Shown here: piece after piece, positions 11,847 through 38,254 of the stretch | Layout of the letters: every line of letters begins with the position of its first letter | Numbering within the stretch: position 1 is the first letter of the stretch | Assembly (NCBI GenBank): GCA_000002445.1 | Contig: AE017150.2 | Coordinates: 1-64,000 of the forward strand | From: Trypanosoma brucei | Lineage: Eukaryota | DNA length: 64,000 nt | Direction of reading: 5' to 3' | Position numbers and translations under genes: made by a program | Notes under the pieces: generated by a model | Told to the model about the DNA's origin: nothing | Databases searched by the model: none | Seen by the model: the letters and a program-made list of their open reading frames with translations, nothing else

Positions 11847-11936
11847 CGTTTGATTCATCGCTTAGCTCTATTATTAAAAAAGAAAAAGCATTTCCTCAAC
11901 ACTCAGCACCTCAAGGAATCGGAAACGGGAACTACA

Positions 11937-14900
11937 ATGTCAGGAAACCAAGGAAGAAAGCGACAGCGCATCTCATCACCTGAGCAGTCAGAAGCTTTAA
12001 AGGAACCATCAACTACTGAACAAAATAAACTCACCACCGTTACAATCACCGAAGAGACGCGTGACGCCAGTAATGATGAAACTGTGGTATCATTACTGAA
12101 TGAGCATGAGAAATTGATTAAACAAACGACACGGCTGGAAAGCAGTGTGAAGGCACTTAGGTGTTTCATGAGTAATCTCACAGCTATGAGTGGCGAAAGG
12201 CAAGGTGGTGTGTGTGATGACACCGAATGCATACATAGAGTAACGTTATATAATGCTGCTGATAATGCCTTCAGTGACGAAGGACTATATGAAGGTGCTC
12301 TTTCCTCACTCTGTGGCCGCATTCAAGCTAAGAAATTAACCATCACGTTATCAAAGGGTGGGAAACTTAACTTAAAACGAGTCAGTAAGCTAAAGCAGTT
12401 AGAAGAGTTACGCATTGAATATCCGCGTGGAAAACTTGTGAATATCATATCTTTGAATAACCTTGATATGTTGAAAAGGCTTTGTCTCAGGAGCAACAAT
12501 GTTGACAACAATGACGTTTGCCATTTATTCAGTGTTGGAACATTGGAAGAGTTGGCTATTACTGACACCATGCAACTGACAAATATCAGAGGAATCTCTC
12601 GCTTGACTAACCTGATGTGTCTTGAGTTAAATTCCACAGATATTGATGATACCTGTATAGGGGAAATAAGTGCATGTGCTAAACTGTCCAAATTGAGTGT
12701 ATCCGAATGCAACAATATCACGGATGCAACCCCAATTTCACAGCTTGCAGCGCTTGAAGAGTTGAATCTAAACAGCTGTTACCACATAACGAAGGGAATA
12801 GGAACACTTGGCATGTTGTTACGATTGCGTATGCTTGACTTGAGTGGTGTTCCTGTGGAAGATAATTGTCTGAAGGATTTGTGTGACTGTGGATCGCTTG
12901 AAAGGCTGAACATTTCTTATTGTATTCAGCTGACAGATATCAATCCACTCTCCAATGCCACTGCTATTGAGGAATTGAACCTTAACGGTTGTCGCCGAAT
13001 AACAAGGGGGATAGACGTTGTGTGGGCATTACCAAAGCTCCGTGTATTTCACATGAAGGATGTGCACCTGAGCGAGCCATCTCTCGATTCAGTTGGGACT
13101 GGTGGATCACTTGTAAAGGTCAGTCTTGATAACTGCGCAGGCTTTGGTGATATGTCACTCTTATCCAGCATTGTTACACTCGAGGAGCTGAATATTCAAA
13201 AATGTGCTGACATCATTAGTGGTGTGGGTTGCCTTGGTACACTACCGTACCTGCGTGTGCTTAACATAAAGGAGGTACACATCTCGTCCCTTGACTTTAC
13301 TGGTATTGGTGCCTCAAAATCCCTTTTACAGCTCAATATGGAGAGTATCACGGGACTGAGTAATGTGGAAGCACTCGCCAACATTTTGACTCTGGAAAAA
13401 CTAAGCCTTCACGGCTGCACGGATATTGACGCTGGAATTGGATGTCTCGGAAACCTGCCACAGCTTAAAGTGTTGGATCTGTCTGGCACAAATACCGACA
13501 ATGAGTCTCTCAGAAGTTTATGCCTATCGCAGACAATGGTGTCCCTCAACCTTTCCCATTGTTGGAAAATGACAAATGTGTCCCATATTTCAAGCCTTGA
13601 AGCATTGAATGAACTGAATCTGAGCAACTGTATTAGGATAAATGCAGGATGGGAAGCACTTGAAAAACTTCAGCAGCTACATGTGGCAATCCTCTCGAAT
13701 ACACATATTACTGATAGAGGCATATCCTATTTTAGCAAGTGCAAAAACCTTGTTACGCTTGATCTTTCTTTCTGCAATAAGTTACTTGATGTTACAACTC
13801 TCTCCAACATCACTACGCTTGAGGAGTTGAATCTTGATAGTTGTTCAAACATCAGAAAAGGGCTGAGCGTTCTTGGAGAGTTGCCACGGCTTTGTGTGTT
13901 GAACATAAAGGGTGTACAGTTGGAAGACTCAGTTATTGGTTCACTAGGGAATGGTAAATCACTTGTAAGGCTCAGTCTTGAGAATTGCAAAGGGTTTGGT
14001 GATGTCACGCCTCTCTCGAACCTTGTTACACTTGAGGAACTGAATCTCCACTACTGTGACAAAGTAACCTCTGGAATGGGAACACTGGGCAGGCTACCGC
14101 AGCTTCGTGTACTGGATTTGGGACGGACACAAGTTGATGATAATTCCCTTGAGAATATCTGCACAAGCTCAATCCCACTTGTGTCATTAAATTTTTCGCA
14201 TTGCAAGAAAATAACATCTATTTCTGCAATAGCTTCCCTTACAGCATTGGAGGAACTCAACATTGACAACTGCTGTAATGTAACATCCGGTTGGAATGTA
14301 TTTGGTACACTTCACCAACTGCGTGTAGCCACACTGTCAAACACACGCATTAATGATGAAAAAATACGGCACGTTAGCGAGTGCAAGTCTTTGAATACAC
14401 TCAACCTTGCGTTTTGCAAAGATATAACAGACGTCACAGCACTTTCTAAAATTACTATGCTTGAGGAGTTGAACCTTGATTGCTGCCCTAACATCAGAAA
14501 AGGTATTGAAACTCTTGGAACGCTTCCCAAGGCACGTATCCTAAGCATGAAGGAATGTTACATGGGAGACGGATATGCGCAACAATGTTCCATCCTTGGG
14601 AATAGTAAGTCACTTGTGAAACTGAATCTTGAGAGGTCAAGAGGGCGCATATCTGTGAAAGCTCTCTCTGACATTGCGACGTTGGAGGAGTTGGTACTTG
14701 ATCATGCACGGGAAGTATGTTGCATACCGTCATTTTCCTGTCTACCGCGCCTTCGAGTACTGAATCTGAAATATACGGATATCAATGGTGATGCAACTAA
14801 AAATATTTCCGAATCAAAATCGCTGCGATCACTCAACTTATCACATTGTAAATGGGTAACTGATATATCAGTATTATCTTCCTTATCGACACTGGAGGAG

Positions 14901-16118
14901 CTGAATGTTAACTGCTGCAATGCAATACGAAAAGGCTGGGAGTCGCTCGGGAAGCTGCCTCTACTACGTGTAGCAATTCTATCTGATACTAACATCACCG
15001 CTAAAGATATAGCTTGCCTTAGCAGTTGCAAAAAGCTGGTGAAACTAAAGTTTTTTCGGTGTAAGAAGTTGTCAGATGTTACGGTGGTGTATAAAATTCA
15101 ATCACTGGAGGAGCTGATAGTTAAGAACTGCTCAGGCGGCCTCAAGGGACTGAATGCCCTTGGTACACTTCCACGGTTGCGTTTTCTCCATCTGCGAAAT
15201 GTGAGTGGTAGTGATATATCTGTTGAATCTATTGGGACGAGCAAATCTCTCGTGAGGCTTAATATTGAAACGCGCGAGGAGTTAACAGACACAACACCCC
15301 TCTCCAACATCACATCCCTTGAGGAATTGTCATTGCGGAAATGCGGTAATAATCTGGAAGGAGTCGGAACACTTGGGAAACTGCCACGGCTTAGATCGCT
15401 GTATCTGGGTTTATCTCGCATTAACGATAGCACACTTTATTATATTTGTCTGTCTCGATCAATTACGTCACTTAACCTAGCCTCCAGTTGGAAACTAACA
15501 GATATATCTCATATATCAAAGCTTACGGCACTGGAGGAATTGAATCTGAGAGGATGTTACCCCATAACTTCAGGCTGGGAAGCACTAAGCGAATTACCAC
15601 GACTTCGTGTGCTCAACTTGGAATCCACCAGAGTTACGACCCGTTACGGTGGATATTATATCAGAAGATGCAAATCCCTCGTCACACTCAGCCTTGAATC
15701 GTGTGATATGACCGATGCTTCATGTCTTGCTAATATCAAGACACTGGAGGAGTTGCATATAGGGAGATGCAAAGAGCTAAGGTGGGGGTTTAGTCCACTT
15801 TTCACTCTTCCGCGGTTGCGCATTCTTAACTTGATTTGTTCTCTCATTACAGATGAAGACCTCAGGGAAATTCAACCACCCCATACCATTGAGGAGCTCA
15901 ATCTCTCTTATTGTGAGGAGCTCAATGATATTACACCACTTGGGAGAATAAAATCAATTAAAAAATTGCATCTCCGTCAGAGCCATGATGCCAGAAGGCC
16001 TACAGAAGGATTCAGAAGTCTTTTGGAGTTGCCGTGTCTTTCTTGGGTTGACCTAAACAACGTGTACGGCTGGTTTGATGTTTCTTGTGAACTGAGAAAA
16101 AGGAGGGTACATACCTAA
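11937..16118 (+). CDS. LRRP: Leucine-rich repeat protein (LRRP / ESAG8-like), ~1393 aa from first ATG
   Basis: Uninterrupted 4.2 kb ORF of ~24-aa LRR units (LEELNL..C..I..G...LG.LP.LRVL.L) grouped into higher-order ~5-repeat supermodules. The ORF-track start at 11850 is TTG; the first ATG is at 11937 and follows a C12 polypyrimidine tract (11834-11845). Stop TAA at 16116-16118. Confidence 0.85.
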   Translation: MSGNQGRKRQRISSPEQSEALKEPSTTEQNKLTTVTITEETRDASNDETVVSLLNEHEKLIKQTTRLESSVKALRCFMSNLTAMSGERQGGVCDDTECIHRVTLYNAADNAFSDEGLYEGALSSLCGRIQAKKLTITLSKGGKLNLKRVSKLKQLEELRIEYPRGKLVNIISLNNLDMLKRLCLRSNNVDNNDVCHLFSVGTLEELAITDTMQLTNIRGISRLTNLMCLELNSTDIDDTCIGEISACAKLSKLSVSECNNITDATPISQLAALEELNLNSCYHITKGIGTLGMLLRLRMLDLSGVPVEDNCLKDLCDCGSLERLNISYCIQLTDINPLSNATAIEELNLNGCRRITRGIDVVWALPKLRVFHMKDVHLSEPSLDSVGTGGSLVKVSLDNCAGFGDMSLLSSIVTLEELNIQKCADIISGVGCLGTLPYLRVLNIKEVHISSLDFTGIGASKSLLQLNMESITGLSNVEALANILTLEKLSLHGCTDIDAGIGCLGNLPQLKVLDLSGTNTDNESLRSLCLSQTMVSLNLSHCWKMTNVSHISSLEALNELNLSNCIRINAGWEALEKLQQLHVAILSNTHITDRGISYFSKCKNLVTLDLSFCNKLLDVTTLSNITTLEELNLDSCSNIRKGLSVLGELPRLCVLNIKGVQLEDSVIGSLGNGKSLVRLSLENCKGFGDVTPLSNLVTLEELNLHYCDKVTSGMGTLGRLPQLRVLDLGRTQVDDNSLENICTSSIPLVSLNFSHCKKITSISAIASLTALEELNIDNCCNVTSGWNVFGTLHQLRVATLSNTRINDEKIRHVSECKSLNTLNLAFCKDITDVTALSKITMLEELNLDCCPNIRKGIETLGTLPKARILSMKECYMGDGYAQQCSILGNSKSLVKLNLERSRGRISVKALSDIATLEELVLDHAREVCCIPSFSCLPRLRVLNLKYTDINGDATKNISESKSLRSLNLSHCKWVTDISVLSSLSTLEELNVNCCNAIRKGWESLGKLPLLRVAILSDTNITAKDIACLSSCKKLVKLKFFRCKKLSDVTVVYKIQSLEELIVKNCSGGLKGLNALGTLPRLRFLHLRNVSGSDISVESIGTSKSLVRLNIETREELTDTTPLSNITSLEELSLRKCGNNLEGVGTLGKLPRLRSLYLGLSRINDSTLYYICLSRSITSLNLASSWKLTDISHISKLTALEELNLRGCYPITSGWEALSELPRLRVLNLESTRVTTRYGGYYIRRCKSLVTLSLESCDMTDASCLANIKTLEELHIGRCKELRWGFSPLFTLPRLRILNLICSLITDEDLREIQPPHTIEELNLSYCEELNDITPLGRIKSIKKLHLRQSHDARRPTEGFRSLLELPCLSWVDLNNVYGWFDVSCELRKRRVHT

Positions 16119-16388
16119 TAATATTTGATCCATTGTTTCACTTTGTATTATTGTAACAACTTATTGCTGAGAACACGTTACTAAATTTAACAGCCAGTTC
16201 GAGTGGTTCGCTCACTGTAGGCACTATTACTCAAACAGATACCAGTAACAATTCACATGGATGATATTGTATGTTACACTATATTAAATACGAGAAATAC
16301 GAGGATTTCATTACGGTTATTTAAGTGCTTCGTATTTTACTAAGTCATACCAATCATATGTTGTGAAGAATAAAGAACAGTTAGGAAA

Positions 16389-16405
16389 GTGTGTGTGTGT
16401 GTGTA
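16389..16405. repeat. (GT)n microsatellite in the LRRP 3' region
   Basis: agtgtgtgtgtgtgtgtatg. Confidence 0.9.
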
Positions 16406-19400
16406 TGCACAAGGCTTTTTTCTCAGTGGAAATTTGTATTTTAGTTGCAAGCGTAGTAATTATTGTATTACGCTCATTTATGCTACAACCATGTCAATTG
16501 AATATCTCATTTCTTGTATGTTTTTCTGTCTTTACAGCTACATACTCTCACCCAAATGTCGAATGAAATATTATCGTTATTATTATTATTATTTCTATCG
16601 TTCTTATTGTTATTACGTGAAACACAACATTCACATTTAATTTTTACTCATAACGACACCCGAAAAGTAAAAGCACTCAACATTCTGCAGTACTGTATAC
16701 CTGTCAATGATATGAGGAGGTGAAGTTTATATACCATTAAAGTATGGTGAATATATTTCATTATTATTATTATTATTTGTTTTACTGAAAGAAATGACAG
16801 AGTGACTTTACAATAAATTATATCAGAGCAGCATGTTGTGCACCAAGTTCTTACATGGGAAACGATAATAAAACACATTACGTGTCTCGTGATTCTTTTT
16901 TACATTTGCTGCTGGCAGATACATATTCTCAAACAGTGTAATCGAATCCCCTTGTTTCATTAAAATATTTTAAATTATTTTATTTATTTTTGTAATAACA
17001 TAATTTATTTTACTACATTTCCTTTCAGAATTATTTGGGCCAAACTTTTGTAAAGATGTCATACATTCCGAATTCCCTTGCACAGCAAAGGGTTGTGTAC
17101 CGCCTTAACCCATTAACATTTGTGCTACTTGTGCATGGGAGAATGTAGTAACCATTTCACTGGCTTTGGGAACTATTATTTTCTTACAACATGATGCCTC
17201 AGAAGAACTGAAGGCGAGAGCAAATCCTTTCATTCATTTTATTTTCCTTTTCTTACCGTATCCGTATATGTTTATTACTTTCCAGAAAATACTGCTGAGG
17301 TAAATTATGTATTTCTTCATATTTACTTTTTATTTGACAATAACAAGAAAAGGATTTCCTCCTCACACACTTAAATTAATTAGACACTGCTGTTAGCTGA
17401 TAAGTTATGGACAGCCGCACATTTAAGTTACACAAATCCACACCGATTCGAAATAGTAAAATATCAAATATTATGTATTTATTTGAGGAAAAAAAAAGAG
17501 ACGAAAAGAAGCGCTGCATCTGAAGCAAGATGCATGTGAAATCGAAGAACAACTGTCATTTGAATATCATATCCCCAAATTGTTTTGATTACATTATTAG
17601 CAGTAAATGCTTACGGAACTTGGGAAGTGAATGACTACTGAAATTAAAAGCATGAGGACGCATTGCGATGACACATGAGAGAAACATGGGTGGGATTTTT
17701 ATATATTGGAAAGTGGAGTGGCTTTAAGGTATTTTACATGATGTTTAGTTGGAGATTGAAATACTTCAGAAAATAGTGAAAGAGTGTTATGATACAGGAA
17801 TCTTTTCGTTTACTAATTTCAAGCGGACTTCCACGACGCACTATTTTCGGTTTACATTGCAAGAAGTGGTATGATATATGCAACCGCTTATTTCTTATTT
17901 ATTTTTTGTGAGTTTATATAAGTGTGGTTTGGTGACGTGGAAAATTTTAGCATATGGTTAATGTCTTTGTGACAAGCAACTGCTCTGCTCGAGCTATGGT
18001 ATTGGAAGGTTAAATATAAATTATATGTTTTATGAGTTATCAAATGCTGAATGCTTCAACTGACTCACTCTTCAAACCAAAACACTTTCTCAGCTTTTCC
18101 ACTCTGAGCTAAAAATGTAGTTCAGTTTCCAAACAGCACACCACATCTCATTCATTATCGGGTAAAGAGATATTTGTTGTATGGGCAACACGAAAGTGGA
18201 GAAGTGCAGAAAGTAGAAATAAAGAAATATATATATATATATCGAATTATGTTGGAACTGGAGGTATCATTCAACCTAAGAGCAAAAGCACCTTTCCTTC
18301 TGTTGTGAGCCGCAACCATGCCGTGACGAAGTTACAAGTGGAAGGAGTTGACTCAAATCATTCATCACCTAATATCTGTAATGTGAATATGTTTGTTGAG
18401 AGATATTCGTATGTTAATGAGAGACCATTATGCAGAGGGAAGAACAACCGACGACTGCAACCTAAAACCCGTAATTTGCGGACTGTGATAAACTTTAACA
18501 GTTTCATTTTATTATGTAAAGATGGCATCAGCAGATTACACTTGTAAGCTGTTTGAAGTCAAAACAACGATACACGGAAGGGAATGTGCAAGTGGTGATT
18601 TAAATCGTATGTTTATGAGAAATTTGTAGTGTGAATCAACTGTTGAAATATGTTGCGCGATATTAACAGCAGATGTTGTTTTTTTCATATTATTCTTTTT
18701 TTTTTTTTTTTACTTGTCTGTCGAACAATCTGAGGTTTAGTTGATATATTCCTGAGTTTCATCACATGTGTTTCTGTTTATATAATACTAATCGTTACAA
18801 ACTAAATATCTGCAGTAAGTATATTAAAAACATACGATTTGTCACCACCTCTTGCTTCATTTCTCTTTATTCAAACGGCACTTTCTTTTAATCTTGTAAA
18901 TAATTTTTTTATCGTTGTTTCATTTGTTTGTACCCTTCATCCTCTGCGCACGCTGCTGTATTTATTTGCTTCTACACGCTCGCAAAAAAAAAAAGAAAAT
19001 ATAAATTATTTTGAAACAAATACAGGTTGCGACTGATGTTTGTTCTGTTTGCGTCGTATTATAAGGGGAATGTAAGATTCGTTGATTAAACATTTCATGG
19101 CGCATCATTACCGAGTTGTTTGTCATGAATTCATAATTAACCATGAGACAGGTTTTTACGAGTCATACTCCCTGCATAAATGCAATGCACTGAAGGAATG
19201 TAATTTTATTTATTTTTTATTACTACCATTTTTATTGTCAGTATTAATATTCAGGTTTTCATCCATCACTATTTTATTATTTATATTTTCTTTCCAACAT
19301 CTGTTTCAAGCAACATGGTCGATTGGAAATAATGTAAACATCAATGGTTAGAGAAACTTTGATTTGCCTTGAGCGTGCAGATGCGCAAAGTTCAAAAGGT

Positions 19401-22245
19401 TTCAGAAAGGTGATGGGGAAGTTTAACCATATTTTTTTATTACTGAATTATTTCTCTAAAATGCTTTTTTTCTTTTGTGTTGCACTTACATTCAAAACCA
19501 ATTGGGCAGCACTTTGAAGACAGTCAGGTGGCGTATGGAAATATTTGCCATTTTGGGAAATTTTCTACCGCTTACTAAAGTTTGATATGTTTTAACACTT
19601 TTTGATGAAAATGTGAATATTGTTGAAAAACTCGAAAATATAAAACTTCTACTAAAAATTGTATAATAGTGGACTACGGATGTAAAGTAGTATAGTGATA
19701 GGGTATTAAAAAATGAGTGCTATTTTTATTTTGTTTATTTTATTGATACTCGTTATGCGTATCATAGTAAGGATAATGATAATGATAGGAGTATGTTGTG
19801 ACTGTGTATATACGAATATAATAAGAGTAGTTGTATGGAACAACTGGAAACCAAAAATAGAAGCGCTTAAAACAATTCTAAGAATACTATATGAAAAATG
19901 ATGCAATGGGAGTAAGCGAGTATGAGATAGAACGCAAAGGTGAATGAGAAATATTGATGGAGGAAAGTAAGAGGGAGGAAGAAAAAAATGTAGCTGTAAT
20001 ATGTGTAGCTTCACCTGCAAATATGAAGATTGGTATTATACACACAACGAAATGACTAAAGAGGAAACGAAGGAGAGAAACAGTCCAGTTTAGAGTCTAA
20101 ATGGAGTTGGTACGTGATCATTACCGATAGGAAAAGAGAGAGAGAAGACGAAAAGAAATTAAAGAAAGTACGGAGTGAAGTGAAAATATATGCGAGTGCA
20201 CGGCGAAAAACAAAATGATACTTGACGATAAAGAGGATAACCCACAAATTTGCGGTATTATACTGAAAATGGATACAGTCTTTTCAGAGATGATTGCAGT
20301 AGCAGCAGCTTTAAACGCTACGCTGATGGGGGTCTTATGATGGAAACCGTGTAATTGGAATAGCTAGCACACGCAACTGGTAAAATTTCTAGTATATCTG
20401 AACTAATCAGTGCAACCAGCTACTTCCATCAACATAACTATGCGTAGAGGTGAAATGTAAAGAATGCAATAAAGGAGTAGAATTCCTCTAGTGTGCTCTG
20501 CACCAGCTGTTGCTAAAACTGACTTCTAAAACAAAAAACTGTAGATGCACGCTCAAAGATAAGCTGCACACACTAAGCAAACATGTAGCAGCAGATACAT
20601 CATAATAATATCAAGTCGATGCCTGTATATAAAACTGTTTCTTAACTAAACAGCTTAGTAGTACATCTGACTTATCTTCCTTGAGTTTTCTACATTTTTT
20701 GCTAATAACAGCCTAAAATTATAAAGGTATATTAGGCAATAAAGTTTCGTATATTGAGAAATTTACTACTACCGTTGTTATTACATTGTGTATTTAAGTA
20801 CAGTATCTCTTGAAAGTGAAAATAAATAACATAAACAATGTGTCAGTGAATTATACTAAGAAACCAAGGGTCTTTGTGGTTGTAGTTCAAACTCATGCAA
20901 CACAAGGGATGGTGTAGGCTCATATTGAGTGCCAAACTAAGTAACATTGAAATTATTACAATTGCGATGGGAGTTTTGTATATCCATGTTACGAGACCGA
21001 CATGGGTTATGGAATTTTAAAGAAACAGAATGCAAGTGATGAGGATATTTTAATTCATTCAGACGGATCTGATGTTATTGTTACTGATGGACAGAAGTAT
21101 GAAAATGCTGTGGAATATTTTATACAAAATACTGCAGAAAATGAAGAGAATTTTAGTGGAGAGGATATAGTCAAAGAAAAGCGGATTTCTCCAATTCTAT
21201 TTATGTCGACAGCTGAGTATTATTAACCTCAGTTGGATTTGCTTATGAACTCACATCACAAGGAGAATATGGAGAGATGTTATTGGTTTTTAAAGGCTCT
21301 TTACTCAGGGAAGGAAAAACTCAACCTAACTCATTTGCTAAAATGGTGGATAACTAAAAAACCTTAGTTGAGCAGTTGTGGTATAATAGCTAGTGTGGAA
21401 ATTCAGAAAGTTTTAGAAAGCGTTTAATGAAATGCTTAAAATGAGCAGCGGGTGGTGGTCGGACCAGAGTAATTACAATCCTTTACTTATTTGTAGTGCG
21501 ATTCAGGAGGAAGCTGTTGGCCAGGAATTTGTTTTGAAGCGAGGAATGATTGGATTAGATTATGAAGAACATTTATTCTCCATCCCAGTCAGTGGCCCTA
21601 TTACAGAAGCTGCGTTCCTTCATCTTGTGGGCAACGCCTTATGGAAGGAAAGGGCAAAGGAAATAATGACAAACTTAACTTGGTTCTACAAGTTTGCGAG
21701 TAAGGAATTTATAAATCAAAACCTAACAAGCTTCAAACTTATGTAGTATCAGGAAAAAGGTTGCATTTTGGTTATGAAAGTATTTGTGGTGATGCATTTA
21801 AAGAAGGGGACTCATCTAAGGCTAAAAAATTATGAAGACAGTAAAAATAAGGACATTAAAATTCATTGGAATTTCCCAAAGTGACTAGGAAAGAAGCAGC
21901 ACTGCCAAGCAAAAATCCAACAGCAGACTGGCGCACTCAAAACTTGTAGAAGACTTCTACACCCAATGTTCGTTGAAAATTACAAGGTAAAAACAAAGCG
22001 GGAATATGATTAACAGGAACAGCGATGAGTTAACCTACCTCAGCAGAGAGGCGCAGATAAAAGACGATACAGCCCTTTTGGCCGCAGCGCTCGTAAGCAG
22101 CACAACAGCTAACGCTGCGAGCGACACATTGCCTGACACCAACCTAAAAGGGCAGATAACAATTAAGTGCGACGAAGCAGCATATCTAGCTGACAGGACG
22201 CTGGCTTTTAGAAACGTTATAGACCAGCACATCGCTGTAATGGCA

Positions 22246-22255
22246 TTTTTTTTTT
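22246..22255 (-). other. Candidate poly(A) tail remnant (T10 on + strand) ~490 bp 3' of the zinc-finger ORF on the minus strand
   Basis: tggcaTTTTTTTTTTggaat; on the minus strand this is A10 following ...ccagtggggggaaattctcacgaaagcacgaagaaaattcc. Consistent with the 3' end of a non-LTR element but short. Confidence 0.3.
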
Positions 22256-22746
22256 GGAATTTTCTTCGTGCTTTCGTGAGAATTTCCCCCCACTGGCGCG
22301 GCCATCAGCCATCACCGTAGAGCCCTGAGATGCTATCGTTCTGGCGACTGTGGCAGAGTCTCCATTTTTTTATTCATCCTAACACACTCTCTATAACTTT
22401 TTGTTGTAGCTCCGCAGTTGAACGGAACACAGCAGATGGGGCGAGATGTCCCTCACCCCGGACTCTCCAAAAGATGTCAATTAGCAATCCTTTTGTTTTG
22501 ATTTTTGTTATTCGTTTATTATTCTCTTCCCCTCTTTCTGTTTCTGTTGCTTGTTGACAGCATACCTCCTCTGTCTCTGAGGGTGTCTGGACTATTCCTG
22601 CGTCCGGTGCTTTTCCTGCTAGCTCCACATTCGGCAATGAGGGGGGAAGTTGCAGAAGGGAGAGTGGGTTGTATGACTGTTACCTTAGGTGAGGACTTCA
22701 CCTGCGGCCGGCTCCGTTCAACCGCAATGAGAAATTGCGCCAGCAT

Positions 22747-23829
22747 TTAAGAGAAACATACATGCTGCACACACACACCCTCTACCGCAAACCTGACACG
22801 TAACTCCTTCAAACCGGGACAGCTCATCAAGTGCAGCGACATTTCTTCACAGTCGCCGCGTTGGCTGGTAACAGTGTGCTCTACCTTCATACCGTTCATC
22901 TTCTTTTGATGTAGGGTGAGGCCAGTTTTGCTAGCACACTGCCTTCCGCATGTCGGGCACACCAACATGGATGTGTTTGTATGCGGGGAATCAGTGGCAC
23001 GCAATTTTGTGCTTTTGCTGCATTTAAGCTCGACTCCCTCACCTTTGTGGAAAGCCTTACAGTGTCGGATGAGGGAGTCCCTGCAACTGAGCACTTTTTG
23101 GCACACACCACACTGCACCTCGCCCTTCCCCGGGACGTCAACGTTTTCCTCACGGGCACGCTTACGAGGGAATTGCACCAACACCACGGTACCGTCCTCC
23201 TTCACTATGCTTTTATGTTTGAATTTCTTGTGTAGTGACAGGGAAGAACGTGTACCGAAGCTCGCCTCGCACAGGTCACATTGAAACGGCAGCTTCCGTG
23301 TATCCTGAGAGGCTGGCGCTGCTGGGGCTCTACCATCTCCTTGCAATGAGTCTTCGTTCTCTCGCCCCCTTTTCACGCGGCAACTACCGCTGCCTATGCC
23401 ATGTATTGTTCTAAGGTGGTGAAATACTCGGCCTGGCACTGCGAATTTGGAGGCACAGAAGGTACAATGAAGCACCTGCGGTCTCATCGGGACTCGTGTG
23501 CTCGATGGTAGGGGAACGATCGCCACCACTGGAGGGGGCTCCGGGGGGATGTCCACTGCAGGTGTTGCATCGCCGTATTTGATCCTCCGGAGGGCATCAG
23601 CTCGCACAAAGCCGTGTTTGTTTACCATATGCGTTACAGCACTCGAGCGGCATTGGTATGTGGCATCACACTCCGTACATTTGGTCGGTTCGGAGGTTCT
23701 CTGAAGAGTGCGTGTCGCAACAGTTGGGGCTGTTTGTATTGTTGGTCCTATCGCTGCATGTTTCGGGTTACACCATCGGCACTGTGGAGGCACACTAGGG
23801 TTGATCTTCCGCACCCTCTTGAATTGCAT
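22747..23829 (-). CDS. ORF with five tandem C2H2 zinc fingers (C-x2-C-x12-H-x4-H), abutting the truncated RHS; possibly retroelement-derived (ingi/DIRE-like C-terminal domain) or a novel gene
   Basis: 361 aa from first ATG (23827-23829). The track start at 23886 is TTG and lies inside RHS-derived sequence. Fingers: CTECDATYQCRSSAVTHMVNKH, CTFCASKFAVPGRVFHHLRTIH, CDLCEASFGTRSSLSLHKKFKH, CGVCQKVLSCRDSLIRHCKAFH, CPTCGRQCASKTGLTLHQKKMNG. Confidence 0.4.
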   Translation of the reverse strand: MQFKRVRKINPSVPPQCRWCNPKHAAIGPTIQTAPTVATRTLQRTSEPTKCTECDATYQCRSSAVTHMVNKHGFVRADALRRIKYGDATPAVDIPPEPPPVVAIVPLPSSTRVPMRPQVLHCTFCASKFAVPGRVFHHLRTIHGIGSGSCRVKRGRENEDSLQGDGRAPAAPASQDTRKLPFQCDLCEASFGTRSSLSLHKKFKHKSIVKEDGTVVLVQFPRKRAREENVDVPGKGEVQCGVCQKVLSCRDSLIRHCKAFHKGEGVELKCSKSTKLRATDSPHTNTSMLVCPTCGRQCASKTGLTLHQKKMNGMKVEHTVTSQRGDCEEMSLHLMSCPGLKELRVRFAVEGVCVQHVCFS

Positions 23830-24570
23830 ACTGCGGAATACTGAAAGAGTTATATGGCCAACCCTTCTGCGAGGTGAGCACAGCAATCTCTAAATTACCG
23901 TGACGAGGCAGTGGGTCGCACAAGTCAAAAGGCGTGTGACTGACATTCACCTCCTCTTCTGTCCACAACTCGGGTTTGCCGTCACAATTACCCACTACCT
24001 TCATGCCAAGAGGTAAATCATTGTGACCCGACTCCACATAACCCCATGTCGCATTGTATATGGATTCATATACTCCTTTCAGTTCTGCACCACCAGCTGT
24101 TTGGTCAGCTCGTTCCCTTGCCTCTTTGGCAGTATCCAATGCCGCATCCAGCATTGCTCTCGCCCTGGGACCAACAAATTCCCTTATTTGCGCTTTTGCC
24201 ATCTCCTCCCATTGCTGCATGTCTTAAATTCTATTACTAGGAAGGTAAATAACTGCCCTCAGTAATTGAAACTCGTCAGTATCCTGTATATCCTCAAGAA
24301 TCTCGGCATCAACATTAATATATCTTCTGAGATTATTAACAAACACATCCATGGACACATTAACTGTGTCATACGTGTTTGAGGAAAACTGATTCAAAAA
24401 GTCATGCAGTTTTATTTCATCCAAACCCGCATAATCTTCCAGCAGCACATTTTCAATAGAGTTGTTAATTGATCAAGTTGGCCCTTTTTCGCCTCCACGC
24501 AGTCAATTCAAAAAATATATTGCCGCATGCAACCTATTACTATGGAAACGCCTTATTGAATTCCACACTT
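23780..24570 (-). pseudogene. RHS: RHS pseudogene: N-terminal ~230 codons only, with a premature TGA, truncated upstream of the P-loop at the retroelement hot-spot region
   Basis: ORFs 24224..24448 and 23795..24220 (-) match intact RHS N-termini (LLEDYAGL..., IREFVGPRARA..., LEIAVLTSQKGWPYNSFSIP). GPTW is replaced by GPT* (tgg to tga, ~24480). Nucleotide homology to the 35798 copy continues down to ~23785 and then stops. Confidence 0.75.
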
Positions 24571-25547
24571 CTGAAAACTTGCCCCCTGATTCTTCACAAG
24601 CTTGCGATAAAAGCATAAACAAAAATAGAATCAGAAACAGAGACAGAGACAGTTTACACTGTAGAAAAGGACACCACAGTGAGTCACTCATTCTAGGAAG
24701 ATAATCACAAAAGCGAACACCCTCAAAAAGACAGCTCAGCGCCATAAAGCAGAACCTACTTACTACTAATAAGGAGTTGTGCCCCTTCCCTGCCAGTAAA
24801 GACACAACATTCCCCAACAAACACAGTGGAAGATCACAAGACTTATGACCCCTCCATGCTAACCTAAACAAGACAGCGCGAATCACAATTGCATGCAATG
24901 CGCTAAGAACCCAAAACGGTTCCGCACATTTGCCTCTGAGGATCCCTACTCAATCGCACCCCTACGCGGGAATCAATATTCTGCCTGTCACAAAATAACA
25001 CAGCGGACAGCAGAAGGAAAGGGGGAAAATAAAGAAACCCATCACAACACATAAGGATTTTAATGGGAACTTAAAGGAAACCTTCTAGATGAGAATGCTA
25101 ACACCCATACCACAACAGTGCTCACAATCCTCTTGTATATCAGTGTTTAATTAGTTTTTCACAAAATGATTTGATAATCGTATCGATTCAAGGAATAAAA
25201 AAAATGTAAATGATAAGACACGACGCAACAAGCTGCCACATTGCCATTAATGGATGTATGTAATACCATTGTTACTATCCATTTCATTGTGACAACACAT
25301 GCAAAATACAATCGATACCACGGATTTCGTACGCCTTCCGTCGTGCGGTGAATCGCAGAGTGGATGTAAACAGTTGCGAAAGGATTACACCAACGCAACT
25401 GCAAGTTCGTTATGCTGCCAGGAACCTGTCCAGGATATATGATGAGTGAACTCCATTACCCAGACAAAAAATGTGACGCCTCCTCTTGCCCTTTCATTCG
25501 TTCTTCACAGTGTTTACCTCGTTGTTGGCTTGCCTGAGGTTCGTCAA

Positions 25548-27572
25548 TTACCTTCGGCCCACAGCAGCCACCGCAAGCATTTTGGTAACTATGTTATCCT
25601 CATACTGCACATGGTACTGCTGCACATTGTTCTTCCAGAATCCCTCCACAAACTGGTGACTGCGGTGCTTTGCCTTACCCTGTGTAATTTCACACTTCTG
25701 CTCAGACCTCATCGCTGTGGATTCGAAGTGCTGAACGTAAATGATTTCCCAGTGAAACATCTCAGTAATTTCCTTCAACTGCTCAACGGTAGCCTCATTC
25801 TGGTGACCACCCCCCTCCGCAGTTGGCAAGAGGGATTGTAACAAATGAATGAATTCGTCGGTTGCTGTGTCATGGCTGCTGGCAACAGTAAACTGCAACA
25901 ACACAATAGTTTTCTTCCCTATGGTTCCTGAAGCCTGTGCAGCCTGCTTTTCATCAACAATAAAGAATGCATCCGCTACGGGGTAGTTGGGAATGCATGG
26001 CACATATAATTCCACCGGAGCCCCCTTCGACTCAGCCCAGTTGATGTCACCTGACACTGTGTTTGGTCGACAAGCATTGAGGAGGTCATCCCTTACGTGT
26101 TGCAAAATGCTTTTGCGTGTCCTCGTGCGCCTGGCCCTTTCATTTGCTGGAAGTTTCGTTATTAGGCTTACGAAGCAAGTTAACACTCTGGGGGAACACA
26201 AATATTTAATTGCATTCTTCTCAAAATAATGCCCGGTGACAGATGCGTCCCGCGTCATACCAGACACCAGTGCCCACTCCTCAGCAATGCCGGAAAACAC
26301 TACATTCAAAATTCTTTTCTTTATAGATTCAGAGTGAGGTACGCATATGTATATCTCACTATTGTTTCTCCCACAGGCACGAACAATCTTCACGAGTTTG
26401 TGAGACGCGTCACTTTCTCTCCATTCGCCTTTGTTACCCACCACGCCAATATAGAGTTCACGCCGCTTATGGGACTTGATGGAATTTATTTCATTGTCTA
26501 TGTCGTCCTCACGCGTGGCATGCTTTGCTTCATCGAACACATAACGAAGTGAAGGTCCAACATGCTCCACACGGTTCTCATACATGTTCCACTTTTCCCT
26601 CAACTCAACAGGCGTGGCTTGAGGAAAAAGCTTGGGTCCCACACGTGAGAAGAAAGCCCGCATTTCACTCATTTCCCAGCAGTTAACAACAATACGTGCA
26701 CATCTTTCCCTCTGCTGGAACCAGCTGTCAAAATTTCTTTCATTAGGTGAACTGATCAAAATGCTTCCCCATTTTGGAGCCACATCTGCCGGTGGCTGCT
26801 CACCTTTGTTGACGAAGTCATAAATAATATAACCACGTGTATTAGATGATATATTCTTCATAAACGTTATAGCCGCTTCTTTACTGTACTCCCTAACTCT
26901 GCCAACGCCACCACCACCAGATTTCTCAAATATATATGCGGCTACACCGCAGAAATACGCAACAATAGGCAACTCTTCCGCATCATAATGCAGTAACTTG
27001 TAGAGGATAAAAGAACCCAAATTCTGAGATTTTCCAATCCCCGGGTTACCAATGGCAAGGTATGATCGTGGAAAATAAAGACATCTTGGCATAACACGTT
27101 GTGTACGCCATAATTCAATTCCATTCCTTACAACATTCCATACACGGAGCTCTTCTCTGCGAATGAATATGTCACTGTTACTTCCCCGGGCAAAGCCTGT
27201 ATATGGCCAACCCATTTCAGACGTAAGAACCAACAGCTCCACTCCTTTAGTGCGTTCCGGCTTCTGTTCAAGAGCTTCCTCAATTTCAGGCACGACATCA
27301 ACTTCCTCATCCTTCCACATCAAACCCTCATTGGGCATTCCATCAACCAACCTCATTCCCAATGTTTGAGTTCCATCGTCGATAATAATATGACTCAATT
27401 TCGCATCATAAATGGTATCGTATAATTTCTCTTCGAGAGACTTGCCCTCTCCGGTTTCTAATGGGTTCTCGTTTTCTCGGCCGGCTTGTCTCTTCATCGG
27501 GCGGTACGCACCATTCAACCATCCATTTAAAATATTCCGAGTATCTCCCACACTACCGCCGTTCTGATTCAT
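25548..27572 (-). CDS. RHS: RHS protein, 674 aa, shorter divergent subfamily
   Basis: ATG confirmed at 27570-27572. P-loop IGNPGIGKS, LVLTSEMGWPYTGF, IFIRREELRVW, WEIIYVQ. N-terminus MNQNGGSVGD lacks the Pro/Ala tract. Own 5'-flank type, shared with the 46167 copy. Confidence 0.85.
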   Translation of the reverse strand: MNQNGGSVGDTRNILNGWLNGAYRPMKRQAGRENENPLETGEGKSLEEKLYDTIYDAKLSHIIIDDGTQTLGMRLVDGMPNEGLMWKDEEVDVVPEIEEALEQKPERTKGVELLVLTSEMGWPYTGFARGSNSDIFIRREELRVWNVVRNGIELWRTQRVMPRCLYFPRSYLAIGNPGIGKSQNLGSFILYKLLHYDAEELPIVAYFCGVAAYIFEKSGGGGVGRVREYSKEAAITFMKNISSNTRGYIIYDFVNKGEQPPADVAPKWGSILISSPNERNFDSWFQQRERCARIVVNCWEMSEMRAFFSRVGPKLFPQATPVELREKWNMYENRVEHVGPSLRYVFDEAKHATREDDIDNEINSIKSHKRRELYIGVVGNKGEWRESDASHKLVKIVRACGRNNSEIYICVPHSESIKKRILNVVFSGIAEEWALVSGMTRDASVTGHYFEKNAIKYLCSPRVLTCFVSLITKLPANERARRTRTRKSILQHVRDDLLNACRPNTVSGDINWAESKGAPVELYVPCIPNYPVADAFFIVDEKQAAQASGTIGKKTIVLLQFTVASSHDTATDEFIHLLQSLLPTAEGGGHQNEATVEQLKEITEMFHWEIIYVQHFESTAMRSEQKCEITQGKAKHRSHQFVEGFWKNNVQQYHVQYEDNIVTKMLAVAAVGRR

Positions 27573-31014: not shown

Positions 31015-32759
31015 TTAACTCATCATCATATTTCGAATCATCAGTGAAAGAGCTTGGCAACTGTATGATTCGATAACTCCAACATTTGCCTTCACTCTTA
31101 CAACCTTCACTAACTTGTCCGTAACTTCATTGTTCTTCCAGGCAGCCGTATGCTCAATAATATCATTATAGGAATATTCATCCGACTTCTTCATAGTTTC
31201 CAGCGCATCATGCACTCTTTTCAGACGCCATTCATAACAGCTTAAACAAAATATATATAACGAGGCAAAAGCCCAATTGGATTAATACGTCCCTCCACTA
31301 TTCTCCACTCATCTTCCATTTCCTTCCTCAATTCGTATCTTCTTCTGTTGGATACCTTTTCCCTTGTATGTATTGACAGTTTTTTCCATGCCACAAATGC
31401 CTTCATGTCACGCACATCATCGCAGTTTATAATAATTTGGCGGCCTCCCGTATTTGTAGTCCAGTCATCAAAGTGGGAACTATTCGGGGAAGTGAAAATA
31501 GTTACACTCCAAACATCAGAGGGAAGTTGAGTGTAAAGGTGCTGCATTGCGTACCTTATGTCCATAATAATGTGTCCTCTGTTTTCAAATTTCATTTTAT
31601 TTATGGCGTTGACCGCAGCTCTCAAATATTCGTACCGCACAACCCTCCCTCTTTCATCACCCTTTCTGTTATATATTAAGTAGGCGATCGTGTCTGTGAA
31701 ATATGCAACAACATCAAGCATTCCTTCATGGAAGTGAAGCAATGAATGAAGTAAAAATGATCCAAGGCCACATGATTTACCAATACCAGGTGTACCAATA
31801 ATAATATGTATCGGTGGGCCCTCAGCTGTTGCTTCCACCCACCATGCTTTCAGACCTCGTTGGATTATATACCACACGCGCATAATTTCACGACGGATAT
31901 ATACATGTTTAAATACTGCTTTGTGCCCCGTAGTGTAATCCAATGCAAACCTGTTGTATGGCCAACCCTTCTCCGAAGTGAGAACAAAAATCTCTAAACC
32001 ATTGGGTCTCTCCTCAATCTCTGCATCTACATCCGCAGGTTCAGGACTTACATCCACCTCCGCTTCGGTCCAAATCCGCTGTGGTTTTCCATCGAATATC
32101 TTCATTCCAAATGGCTCTTCATCATAACCCGACATCACATAACTCCATTTTGCATTATAAATGGAATCATAAGCGCCTTCAACTTCAACAGCACCATCAG
32201 CTGTTTGGGCAGCTCGTTTCCTTGCTTCTTTGGCAATGCGCAGTGCCCTGTCCAACTTTGTCGCTGCCACGGGACCAACAAATTCCCTTATTTGCGCTGT
32301 TGCATTTTCTTCCCATTGGTGAATGTCTTCAATCCTATTACGAGGCAGATAAATAACTGCCCTCAGTAATTGAAACTCATCAAGCCCCCGTACCCTTCCT
32401 AGAAGCCTGGCATTCACAATATAATCCTCCGGGCTCTGAACAAAAATGGGCATCCTAACATTTTCTGCTTCAGCCACCGCAAAAGTCCCGCCAACGAACT
32501 CCTGAATAAAGTCGTTCACTGTCATTTTACGCAAACCCGCATAGCGTTGCAGCAACACATCCCTCACCTTACTATTCATCGTCCATGTTAGTCCCCCTTC
32601 AGTTCTCTGCCGTATTTGTGGAGGCTGAGCAGCAGCAGCAGCAGGAGGCGGCGGTACATTTTCATCCCGTGGCCTCCTCACTGCTGCTCCAAAATTACCT
32701 GCCACTTGTTGGTTTGCATTATTTCTTCGTCGACCCCCACCTCTTCGACGTCTTGACAT
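31015..32759 (-). pseudogene. RHS: RHS pseudogene: frameshifted and C-terminally truncated mosaic copy
   Basis: 505-aa ORF 31242..32759 has an N-terminus like the 1683 copy (MSRRRRGGGRRRNNANQQVAGNFGAAVRRPRDENVPPPP) but a core like the 46167 copy (IIGTPGIGKSCGLGSFLLHSLLHF...DVVAYFTD). After a frameshift, ORF 31015..31215 continues ...KLVKVVRVKANVGVIESYSCQALSL, which is RHS-like, then ends. About 270 C-terminal codons are missing. Confidence 0.8.
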
Positions 32760-38167: not shown

Positions 38168-38254
38168 TGCTAATGCCCTATTGTCTCGTTGTCTAGCAAC
38201 TGCAAAATTAAAGTAACGTATGAGGAAAATAATAGTGTGTAAATAATGTAACAC

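What the first reader, a model, noticed from the sequence alone, without database searches (positions are those of the whole stretch)
22240..24570. RHS pseudogene broken upstream of its P-loop, joined to a five-finger C2H2 ORF and a short A-tail
Seen in sequence: the RHS N-terminal fragment (24570 to ~23785, minus strand) is homologous at nucleotide level to intact copies. Homology ends where intact copies read ...DGDVYIRRE, about codon 250 and upstream of the GTPGIGKS P-loop. From exactly there an ORF runs 22747-23829 with five tandem C-x2-C-x12-H-x4-H fingers. It is followed ~490 bp later by A10 on the minus strand (22246-22255). RHS coding does not resume beyond the A-run. Established knowledge: RHS genes were named for a fixed hot spot upstream of the P-loop where ingi/RIME/DIRE non-LTR elements insert; ingi/L1Tc-type elements end in a C-terminal C2H2 domain followed by a poly(A) tail. 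Inference: this is the 3' part of a 5'-truncated or degenerate ingi-like element, or an unrelated multi-finger gene captured at the hot spot. Five consecutive classical C2H2 fingers are unusual for trypanosomatid proteins, so an undescribed RHS::zinc-finger chimera is also possible.
Basis: partly seen in the sequence, partly recalled or inferred. Interest (0 to 1): 0.7.

Follow-up and report, generated by a model that had tools for sequence, protein, structure and literature searches.

The report
Truncated ingi retroelement beside dead RHS
The zinc-finger reading frame is the tail end (last 1.55 kb) of an ordinary Trypanosoma brucei ingi retrotransposon, joined to a decayed fragment of an RHS gene, so it is a known kind of subtelomeric debris and not a new zinc-finger gene.

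Summary
A decayed RHS N-terminal fragment (23798-24568, minus strand) stops 45 codons before the P-loop. It abuts a 360-codon ORF with C2H2 fingers, and an A10 run lies 492 bp after that ORF.

The ORF is the C-terminal domain of an ingi-clade non-LTR retrotransposon:
- Its only homologues among billions of proteins are "Tbingi protein" fragments of T. theileri and T. grayi, plus one T. cruzi protein.
- In those proteins the finger array follows RNase H in the same ORF.
- Homology runs through the TAA at 22747-22749 to the natural ORF end.
- Seven of the eight published RIME LAMP primer sites map in order (129/141 nt) to 22267-22485, just before the A10.

So 22246-23804 is the 3' 1.55 kb of an ingi, truncated at its 5' end.

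- Four fingers are canonical. The fifth has lost its last His.
- The fingers are dispersed, not tandem.
- The RHS and finger frames differ, and a TAG sits at the junction, so there is no fusion protein.
- The one accessible paper places the hot spot after the P-loop, so this is not a canonical hot-spot insertion.
- There is no 12-bp target-site duplication, and the 3' flank holds an oppositely oriented ESAG3-like pseudogene.

The junction shows about 8 nt of microhomology. Ordinary; low interest.

The parts
23798..24568 (-). Decayed RHS N-terminal pseudogene fragment, about 257 codons in one frame. GTG replaces the ATG. Internal stops lie at 24503-24505, 24473-24475 and 24224-24226, and a terminal TAG at 23795-23797.
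   Evidence: blastn gives 82% and 81% identity to intact RHS copies. tblastn gives 72% aa identity to residues 30-283 of the 35798-38254 copy. Pfam RHS_N E=1e-36, cut at position 83 of 127. The translation shows the stops.
23805..23812 (-). Junction microhomology GCGGAAGA. This stretch matches both the RHS parent and the ingi parent (codons R-K-I of the ingi frame).
   Evidence: Alignment of the junction with two intact RHS copies and with T. theileri and T. grayi ingi DNA. R-K-I lies at the same distance from C-R-W-C in T. theileri P0004. The T. brucei ingi reference itself was not available, so this is an inference.
22522..23804 (-). Remnant of the ingi ORF, the last ~428 codons downstream of RNase H. 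It has one internal nonsense codon (TAA, 22747-22749). The natural double stop is at 22516-22521.
   Evidence: Only homologues are Tbingi proteins of T. theileri and T. grayi. The window aligns to P0162 residues 371-450, after its RNase H domain at 158-294. The alignment to P0163 runs through the stop to the C-terminus.
23770..23781 (-). C-R-W-C, the C-x2-C motif that follows RNase H in ingi-clade ORFs. It is the first conserved landmark of the retained part.
   Evidence: Conserved as CRWCNP in P0004, P0011, P0156 and P0162. Coordinates.
23614..23679 (-). C2H2 finger 1 (CTECDATYQCRSSAVTHMVNKH)
   Evidence: Pattern scan. Conserved in T. theileri, T. grayi and T. cruzi homologues.
23401..23466 (-). 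C2H2 finger 2 (CTFCASKFAVPGRVFHHLRTIH)
23215..23280 (-). C2H2 finger 3 (CDLCEASFGTRSSLSLHKKFKH). This is the best Pfam zf-C2H2_4 match.
23047..23112 (-). C2H2 finger 4 (CGVCQKVLSCRDSLIRHCKAFH)
22894..22959 (-). Degenerate finger 5 (CPTCGRQCASKTGLTLHQKKMN). The last His is replaced by Asn. T. theileri has H-RMSR-H here.
   Evidence: P0026; P0154.
22816..22851 (-). CEEMSLHLMSCP, the H-x4-C-P half of the C-terminal Cys/His motif common to non-LTR ORFs.
   Evidence: Aligned to QCEETGMHLLSCP of T. grayi P0163. The general motif is from my own knowledge.
22256..22515 (-). 3' untranslated end of ingi, equal to the 3' half of RIME.
   Evidence: Seven of eight published RIME LAMP primer sites (PMC4358998, Table 1) map collinearly at 22267-22485 with 129/141 matches, and nowhere else in the window.
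22246..22255 (-). A10 tail of the retroelement
   Evidence: Sequence. It lies 11 nt after the RIME-B3 primer site.
21833..22245 (.). 3' flank of unknown origin. It is not RHS and no 12-nt duplication partner was found.
   Evidence: No homologue was found for its + strand ORF.
20855..21832 (+). ESAG3-like pseudogene in the opposite orientation, with frameshifts and stops. Together with the + strand LRR gene it makes this a convergent strand-switch point.
   Evidence: 57-60% aa identity in three frames to P0164 (UniRef Q26748, 368 aa). Calling it ESAG3 is from my own knowledge; the source names it 'variable surface glycoprotein'.

Best explanation
Window 22246-23804 (minus strand) is the 3'-terminal ~1.55 kb of a Trypanosoma brucei ingi (Tbingi) non-LTR retrotransposon. 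It holds the last ~428 codons of the single ingi ORF, which is the region downstream of RNase H. That region carries the multi-finger C2H2 domain, homologous to the nucleic-acid-chaperone domain characterised in L1Tc. It is followed by the ~260-nt 3' end that ingi shares with RIME, and then a short A-tail.

The copy is dead. It lacks the endonuclease, RT and RNase H parts, has one nonsense codon, and has lost a zinc ligand in the last finger.

Its 5' end is joined to an already decaying RHS N-terminal fragment. The join lies inside an ~8-nt stretch shared by both partners, about 45 codons upstream of the P-loop. This is not the canonical hot spot. The join is therefore an illegitimate, microhomology-mediated junction. 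It arose either when a 5'-truncated cDNA was attached during retrotransposition with loss of target DNA, or during later break repair. It is not an in-frame hot-spot insertion.

The composite sits at the end of the minus-strand RHS array, where that array converges on plus-strand genes. It has no protein-coding function. At most it contributes RHS-pseudogene/ingi transcripts of the kind known to feed the RNAi pathway.

Shown: the identity of the parts, their order, the frames, the stops, and the absence of a duplication and of a second RHS half. Inferred: the microhomology mechanism and the order of events.
For: - Homologues: word-indexed and exhaustive HMMER searches return as true, single-stretch homologues only 'Tbingi protein' or hypothetical fragments from T. 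theileri and T. grayi, plus one T. cruzi C2H2 protein.
- Domain order: in T. grayi P0162 and P0011 the RNase H domain (Pfam, residues 158-294 of P0162) precedes ...RFRTG..LLRK....CRWCNP and the fingers in one ORF. The window aligns from residue 371. In T. theileri locus L001 the order is RT-like, then RNase H-like, then fingers, then an A-rich end.
- Natural ORF end: the alignment to T. grayi P0163 continues across the window's TAA to the C-terminus.
- RIME-type 3' end: the RIME LAMP primer sites F2, LF, F1c, B1c, LB, B2 and B3 map in the right order and orientation at 22267-22485 with 3, 4, 1, 1, 1, 0 and 2 mismatches. F3, expected in the 5' half of RIME, is absent (primers from PMC4358998).
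- Size: ingi is 5.25 kb with a 4,971-bp ORF flanked by RIME halves (PMC3447711). This fits an ORF end about 260 nt before the tail.
- Junction: the RHS frame and finger frame differ, with a TAG at the junction. GCGGAAGA is shared by RHS copies and T. theileri ingi DNA.
- Missing hot-spot hallmarks: no 12-nt duplication, although Tbingi/RIME make 12-bp TSDs (PMC3820030). No RHS lies downstream.
- Composition: GC is 0.52 in the ingi piece, 0.44 in the RHS fragment and 0.39 in the flank.
Against: - No T. brucei ingi reference sequence could be reached with these tools. Assignment to Tbingi, rather than another ingi subclade, rests on 141 nt of RIME primer sites at 91.5% identity. The reported median RIME divergence is 4%.
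- The microhomology is inferred from T. theileri and T. grayi DNA, not from the T. brucei parent.
- Only one stop occurs in ~428 codons, despite ~8% divergence from the RIME primers. That is fewer than a rough neutral expectation of several, so the divergence may be between subfamilies, or the copy may be younger than it looks.
- The position of the canonical hot spot comes from a secondary source (PMC7563717). The primary paper was not held.
Confidence: 0.8

Rival explanations
1. A canonical hot-spot insertion. An ingi inserted by target-primed reverse transcription at the RHS retrotransposon hot spot, and the downstream RHS half was lost later.
For: RHS genes are known preferred targets. The element has the same orientation as the RHS fragment and abuts it directly.
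Against: The break is 45 codons upstream of the P-loop, whereas PMC7563717 places the hot spot five codons downstream of that motif. The element starts about 3.7 kb into ingi rather than at its 5' signature. No 12-nt duplication is present. No RHS 3' half exists within 6 kb.
Confidence: 0.07
2. An ancient DIRE, or an ingi of another subclade, rather than Tbingi. The RIME-like 3' end would reflect shared ancestry only.
For: There is 8.5% mismatch to the RIME primers, about twice the median RIME divergence (PMC3820030). No T. brucei protein homologue is present in the databases.
Against: DIREs are described as conserving only the 5' signature (PMC1874656). Here the 3' 220 nt match RIME at 91.5% in perfect order. 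The ORF has a single stop in 428 codons, which is unlike heavily degenerate DIREs.
Confidence: 0.1
3. An expressed chimeric or domesticated zinc-finger gene. The ATG at 23829 would start a 360-aa multi-finger protein driven by the RHS fragment's upstream processing signals.
For: The 360-codon ORF is open. A polypyrimidine tract followed by AG lies upstream of the RHS fragment. There are few stops for the apparent divergence.
Against: The ORF is out of frame with RHS. 25 ATGs precede its start on the presumptive transcript. The ORF is cut by a nonsense codon relative to the conserved C-terminus. The last finger has lost a ligand. No identical protein is on record anywhere. All homologues are retroelement fragments.
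Confidence: 0.03

Closest known systems
Tbingi (ingi) non-LTR retrotransposon of Trypanosoma brucei, and its partner RIME
   Same: The 3' ~220 nt match RIME primer sites in order. An A-tail is present. The C-terminal ORF region is homologous to 'Tbingi protein' of other trypanosomes. The ORF end lies about 260 nt before the tail, as expected for a 5.25-kb element with a 4,971-bp ORF.
   Different: Only the last ~30% of the element is present. It has one nonsense codon, no target-site duplication, and ~8% divergence from the RIME primer sequences.
C2-L1Tc, the C-terminal C2H2 nucleic-acid-chaperone domain of T. cruzi L1Tc
   Same: Same position in the ORF, after RNase H at the 3' end. Same CX2CX12HX3-5H finger type (PMC5814959).
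   Different: L1Tc is described with two fingers. This element has four intact and one degenerate finger. T. theileri relatives have six and T. grayi relatives at least five. Only the first-finger region shows detectable homology to a T. cruzi protein (P0129).
Canonical RHS pseudogenes with RIME/ingi at the hot spot
   Same: An RHS reading frame is interrupted by an ingi-family element in the same orientation, in a subtelomeric-type RHS array.
   Different: Canonical cases have the element flanked by two RHS halves, at a fixed site near (by the accessible source, just after) the P-loop. Here the break is 45 codons before the P-loop, the element is 5'-truncated, and no second half follows.

Membership tests
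ingi clade non-LTR retrotransposon (Tbingi/RIME) | 3' end shared with RIME, followed by a poly(A) tail | tested here: met
   Seven RIME LAMP primer sites are collinear at 22267-22485 (129/141 nt). A10 lies at 22246-22255.
ingi clade non-LTR retrotransposon (Tbingi/RIME) | Single ORF with APE, RT, RNase H and a C-terminal C2H2 domain, in that order | tested here: inconclusive
   Only the post-RNase H part is present here. It is collinear with the part after RNase H in T. grayi and T. theileri homologues. The APE, RT and RNase H parts are absent because of truncation.
ingi clade non-LTR retrotransposon (Tbingi/RIME) | 5' 77-79-bp signature (Pr77 hallmark) | tested here: not met
   The element begins ~77 residues after the RNase H equivalent. 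The sequence at the junction encodes conserved ORF residues. Absence is expected for a 5'-truncated copy and does not argue against origin from ingi.
ingi clade non-LTR retrotransposon (Tbingi/RIME) | 12-bp target-site duplication | tested here: not met
   No direct repeat flanks 23798-23812 and 22234-22245. The 12-mer after the tail has no partner in the window beyond chance.
ingi clade non-LTR retrotransposon (Tbingi/RIME) | Nucleotide identity to a full-length Tbingi reference over the ORF part | not testable with these tools
   No trypanosome nucleotide collection is available, and no T. brucei ingi protein is in the protein collections.
Canonical RHS hot-spot insertion | Insertion at the fixed site next to the ATP/GTP-binding motif | tested here: not met
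   The break is at codon ~255 and the P-loop at codon 300. PMC7563717 places the hot spot five codons after the motif. The primary source could not be read.
Canonical RHS hot-spot insertion | Retroelement flanked by the two halves of the RHS gene | tested here: not met
   tblastn with seven RHS proteins finds nothing in 16000-22245.
RHS gene family | RHS_N and RHSP (P-loop) domains | tested here: inconclusive
   RHS_N is matched (E=1e-36) but cut at profile position 83 of 127. The RHSP domain is absent. There are three in-frame stops and no ATG. This is a pseudogene fragment of the family.

The most novel reading that the evidence does not exclude
The open 360-codon frame starting at the ATG at 23829 might be translated from a trans-spliced RHS-pseudogene transcript. 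That would give a stand-alone multi-finger nucleic-acid-binding protein, a domesticated ingi C-terminal chaperone domain. A milder novel point is that ingi relatives in T. brucei, T. theileri and T. grayi carry a 5-6-finger array placed between the C-x2-C and H-x4-C-P motifs, whereas only two fingers have been characterised in L1Tc.
Probability: 0.03. Interest if true: 0.45.

Novelty: already known. Interest (0 to 1): 0.1.

Why it matters
It matters little beyond annotation. The locus should be labelled as an RHS pseudogene fragment plus a 5'-truncated ingi remnant, not as a zinc-finger gene.

Two minor points are useful:
- The junction is an example of a non-hot-spot, microhomology-type RHS/ingi join at a convergent strand-switch. 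This is relevant to how subtelomeric RHS arrays are rearranged.
- The ingi C-terminal domain in this lineage holds more C2H2 fingers than the two studied biochemically in L1Tc.

Tried and rejected
- **5' end of an element:** I first suspected the junction sequence CCCTAGTG... was the 5' Pr77-type signature, which would make the fingers an N-terminal domain. I rejected this once T. theileri locus L001 and T. grayi P0011/P0162 showed the fingers downstream of RNase H.
- **Rfam:** a scan of 21000-25500 at E<=1 gave nothing.
- **Exact-protein look-ups:** the finger ORF, the RHS-fragment ORF, the post-stop ORF, two neighbouring RHS proteins and the LRR protein all returned nothing. The source assembly could therefore not be identified, and other copies of the junction could not be sought.
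- **Primary literature:** the RHS paper (Bringaud 2002) and the C2-L1Tc paper (Heras 2005) are not held.
- **Pfam on flank ORFs:** nothing found.
- **Chimeric retrocopy:** I considered RT template switching onto an RHS mRNA. I rejected it because no spliced-leader sequence precedes the RHS part and a genomic-type polypyrimidine/AG acceptor lies upstream.
- **SLACS/CZAR (CRE clade):** I considered these as the source of the fingers. I rejected them because the RIME-type 3' end and the RNase H linkage are ingi-clade features.


Full report
**Context**

The window is an array of retrotransposon hot spot (RHS) genes on the minus strand. Pfam RHS_N and RHSP match ORFs at 1683-4172, 25548-27572, 31242-32759, 35798-38254, 46167-48743, 55836-58340 and 61399-63768. 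A large leucine-rich-repeat gene lies on the plus strand at 11850-16118. Sequences specific to the Trypanozoon RIME element are present, so the source is a Trypanosoma brucei-group genome. Exact-protein look-ups failed, so the assembly itself could not be identified.

**The observation**

- Nucleotide homology of the fragment to intact RHS copies spans 23805-24567, at 82% and 81% identity to the two closest copies.
- The alignment shows where homology stops. The fragment reads ...GCGGAAGATCAACCCTAGTG. The intact copies read ...GCGGAAGAACCAGGAGACTACGTG, encoding ...AEEPGDYVFDGDVYIRRE.
- Counted from the ATG of the intact copy, the break is at codon ~255 and the GTPGIGKS P-loop starts at codon 300.
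- The ORF from the ATG at 23829 to the TAA at 22747-22749, and the A10 at 22246-22255, are as stated.
- tblastn with all seven RHS proteins of the window finds no RHS coding between 16000 and 22245.

Some details need correction.
- A pattern scan of all six frames finds four full C-x2-C-x12-H-x4-H motifs in this ORF. A fifth ends H-QKKM-N and so lacks its last zinc ligand. Only one other full match occurs in the whole window, in low-complexity sequence.
- The fingers start 51-71 residues apart. They are dispersed rather than tandem.
- The RHS fragment is a decayed pseudogene. It has GTG instead of ATG, three internal in-frame stops, and a TAG exactly at the junction.
- The finger ORF is in a different frame from the RHS fragment.

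**What the finger ORF is**

A word-indexed search of 5.8 billion proteins returned only three hits, all 'Tbingi protein' of T. theileri (best E=9e-37).

An exhaustive HMMER profile search of 1.84 billion representatives gave about a dozen single-stretch homologues. Generic multi-finger proteins followed at much lower scores. Of the five top hits checked, the four that carry a source name come from T. theileri, T. grayi and T. cruzi. A second profile search added more T. theileri and T. grayi 'Tbingi protein' fragments and nothing else.

In T. grayi P0162, Pfam finds RNase H at residues 158-294. The window ORF aligns from residue 371, across the conserved ...CRWCNP... landmark and the first finger. 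P0011 shows the same order in one ORF. In the T. theileri locus L001 the reading frames run RT-like, RNase H-like, fingers, then an A-rich end. The finger array is therefore the C-terminal domain of ingi-clade elements, in the same position as the C2H2 nucleic-acid-chaperone domain characterised in L1Tc (PMC5814959).

T. theileri copies have six fingers. The window lacks the equivalent of their third. The window's last finger has Asn where T. theileri has His.

BLASTP alignment to T. grayi P0163 runs straight through that stop...CEEMSLHLMSCPGLKELRVRF...CFS*MLAQFLIAVERS aligns with ...CEETGMHLLSCPVLKSLRCHF...CFMKEFATYLLEVKR. It continues to within a few residues of the T. grayi C-terminus. The TAA is therefore a nonsense mutation in a ~428-codon remnant, whose natural stop is at 22519-22521.

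**The 3' end**

No trypanosome nucleotide database was available, so I used the published RIME LAMP primers as a reference (PMC4358998, Table 1). Seven of the eight sites map to the minus strand in the correct order and orientation:

| Primer site | Window coordinates | Mismatches |
|---|---|---|
| F2 | 22466-22485 | 3 |
| LF | 22448-22465 | 4 |
| F1c | 22424-22445 | 1 |
| B1c | 22345-22366 | 1 |
| LB | 22325-22344 | 1 |
| B2 | 22305-22323 | 0 |
| B3 | 22267-22286 | 2 |

That is 129 of 141 nt, and these sites occur nowhere else in the window. The missing primer, F3, is the most upstream one. It would lie in the 5' half of RIME, which is not contiguous with the 3' half in an ingi.

Ingi is a 5.25-kb element. 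A 4.75-kb specific part is flanked by the two RIME halves, and the ORF is 4,971 bp (PMC3447711). An ORF end about 260 nt before the tail, as seen here, fits those numbers. I conclude that 22246-23804 is the last ~1.55 kb of an ingi.

Assignment to Tbingi rather than a DIRE rests on this RIME-type 3' end. DIREs are described as conserving only the 5' signature (PMC1874656). The 8.5% mismatch is about twice the median RIME divergence of 4% (PMC3820030), so this is a moderately old or variant copy.

**The junction and the flanks**

Aligning the junction with two intact RHS copies and with T. theileri and T. grayi ingi DNA shows that GCGGAAGA (23805-23812) matches both kinds of parent. RHS has GCGGAAGA and T. 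theileri ingi has GCGAAAGA. In the ingi frame this encodes the R-K of a conserved LLRK(I/M/L) located ten residues before CRWC. This looks like ~8 nt of microhomology at an illegitimate join. It remains an inference until the T. brucei ingi sequence is compared.

There is no 12-nt direct repeat at the two ends, although Tbingi/RIME insertions make 12-bp duplications (PMC3820030).

Downstream of the A-tail lie 413 nt of unidentified sequence. Then comes, on the opposite strand, a frameshifted pseudogene at 20855-21832. It is 57-60% identical to a 368-aa T. brucei protein, UniRef Q26748. From my own knowledge I recognise that protein as ESAG3-like. With the plus-strand LRR gene, this places the ingi remnant at the point where the minus-strand RHS array meets plus-strand genes. 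Retroelements are reported to be enriched at strand-switch regions (PMC5814959).

**The hot-spot question**

The only accessible statement, PMC7563717 summarising Bringaud 2002, says that the ATP/GTP-binding motif lies five codons upstream of the hot spot. It also says that hot-spot pseudogenes carry retroelements flanked by two RHS halves. On that basis the break here is about 50 codons from the hot spot.

Independently of that source, none of the hallmarks is present: no element 5' end, no duplication, no second RHS half. I could not read the primary paper, so the exact coordinate of the hot spot remains second-hand.

**How it most likely arose and what it does**

The parts and their order are shown. 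The history is inferred. There are two likely routes:
- An ingi cDNA was 5'-truncated and its end captured by microhomology in an RHS gene, with loss of the downstream target DNA.
- A pre-existing ingi at the array boundary was joined to a broken RHS copy by microhomology-mediated repair.

The evidence does not separate these.

The composite encodes no fusion protein. The frames differ, a TAG sits at the junction, and the RHS part has no ATG and three stops. In addition, 25 ATGs precede the finger ORF's ATG on any transcript starting upstream of the RHS fragment. A polypyrimidine/AG acceptor upstream of the RHS fragment makes a non-coding chimeric transcript plausible. Ingi/RHS sequences are the main source of siRNAs in T. 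brucei, and convergent transcription units also yield siRNAs (PMC3447711). That is the only activity I would expect, and it is not special to this locus.

**Comparison and verdict**

This is a 5'-truncated Tbingi remnant next to an RHS pseudogene fragment. About 40% of ingi/RIME copies are incomplete, a figure recalled from the abstract of Bringaud 2004 and not re-read here. Most annotated RHS genes are pseudogenes through insertion or truncation (PMC6393297).

The multi-finger array is the normal C-terminal module of this retroelement lineage, not a novel trypanosomatid zinc-finger gene. The finding is real as sequence, correctly guessed in its first interpretation, wrong in its premise about the hot spot, and of low interest.

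Noticed in passing
window 20855-21832 (+): A pseudogene with frameshifts and stops, 57-60% identical over three frames to a 368-aa T. brucei protein (UniRef Q26748, labelled 'variable surface glycoprotein'). It looks ESAG3-like from my own knowledge. It lies convergent to the RHS array.
   Followed up: partly
window 11850-16118 (+): A 1,422-codon ORF with many leucine-rich repeats (Pfam LRR_4, E=9e-62), on the strand opposite to the RHS array. It is probably an LRRP/ESAG8-like gene of the kind found in RHS clusters.
   Followed up: no
window 21991-22245 (+): An 85-codon open frame (…NRNSDELTYLSREAQIKDDTALLAAALVSS…) directly abutting the ingi A-tail. It has no homologue in the protein search and no Pfam match. 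Its origin is unknown.
   Followed up: partly
window 25548-27572 (-) and 31242-32759 (-): Two atypical RHS ORFs. One lacks the N-terminal DUF7578 region and has GNPGIGKS instead of GTPGIGKS. The other is cut after 180 of 312 positions of the P-loop domain profile. They may be further RHS pseudogenes or chimeras.
   Followed up: no
window RHS copies, ~14 codons after GKS (e.g. within 1683-4172, 25548-27572, 55836-58340): Three of the seven RHS copies carry CTGCATTATGA at the conserved LLHY(D/E) codons. This contains the TATGA core of the L1Tc/NARTc target pattern quoted in PMC6967402. It may mark the actual retroelement target downstream of the P-loop.
   Followed up: partly
T. theileri L001 8001-9419; T. 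grayi P0163: In ingi-clade ORFs of T. theileri and T. grayi, the 5-6 C2H2 fingers lie between a C-x2-C motif (CRWCNP) and a later H-x4-C-P motif. It looks as if the finger array were inserted into the usual C-terminal Cys/His motif of non-LTR elements. L1Tc is described with only two fingers.
   Followed up: partly
window 36623-37249 (+) and 62224-62850 (+): Identical-length 208-codon ORFs antisense to two closely related RHS genes. They are probably a by-product of RHS codon composition.
   Followed up: no
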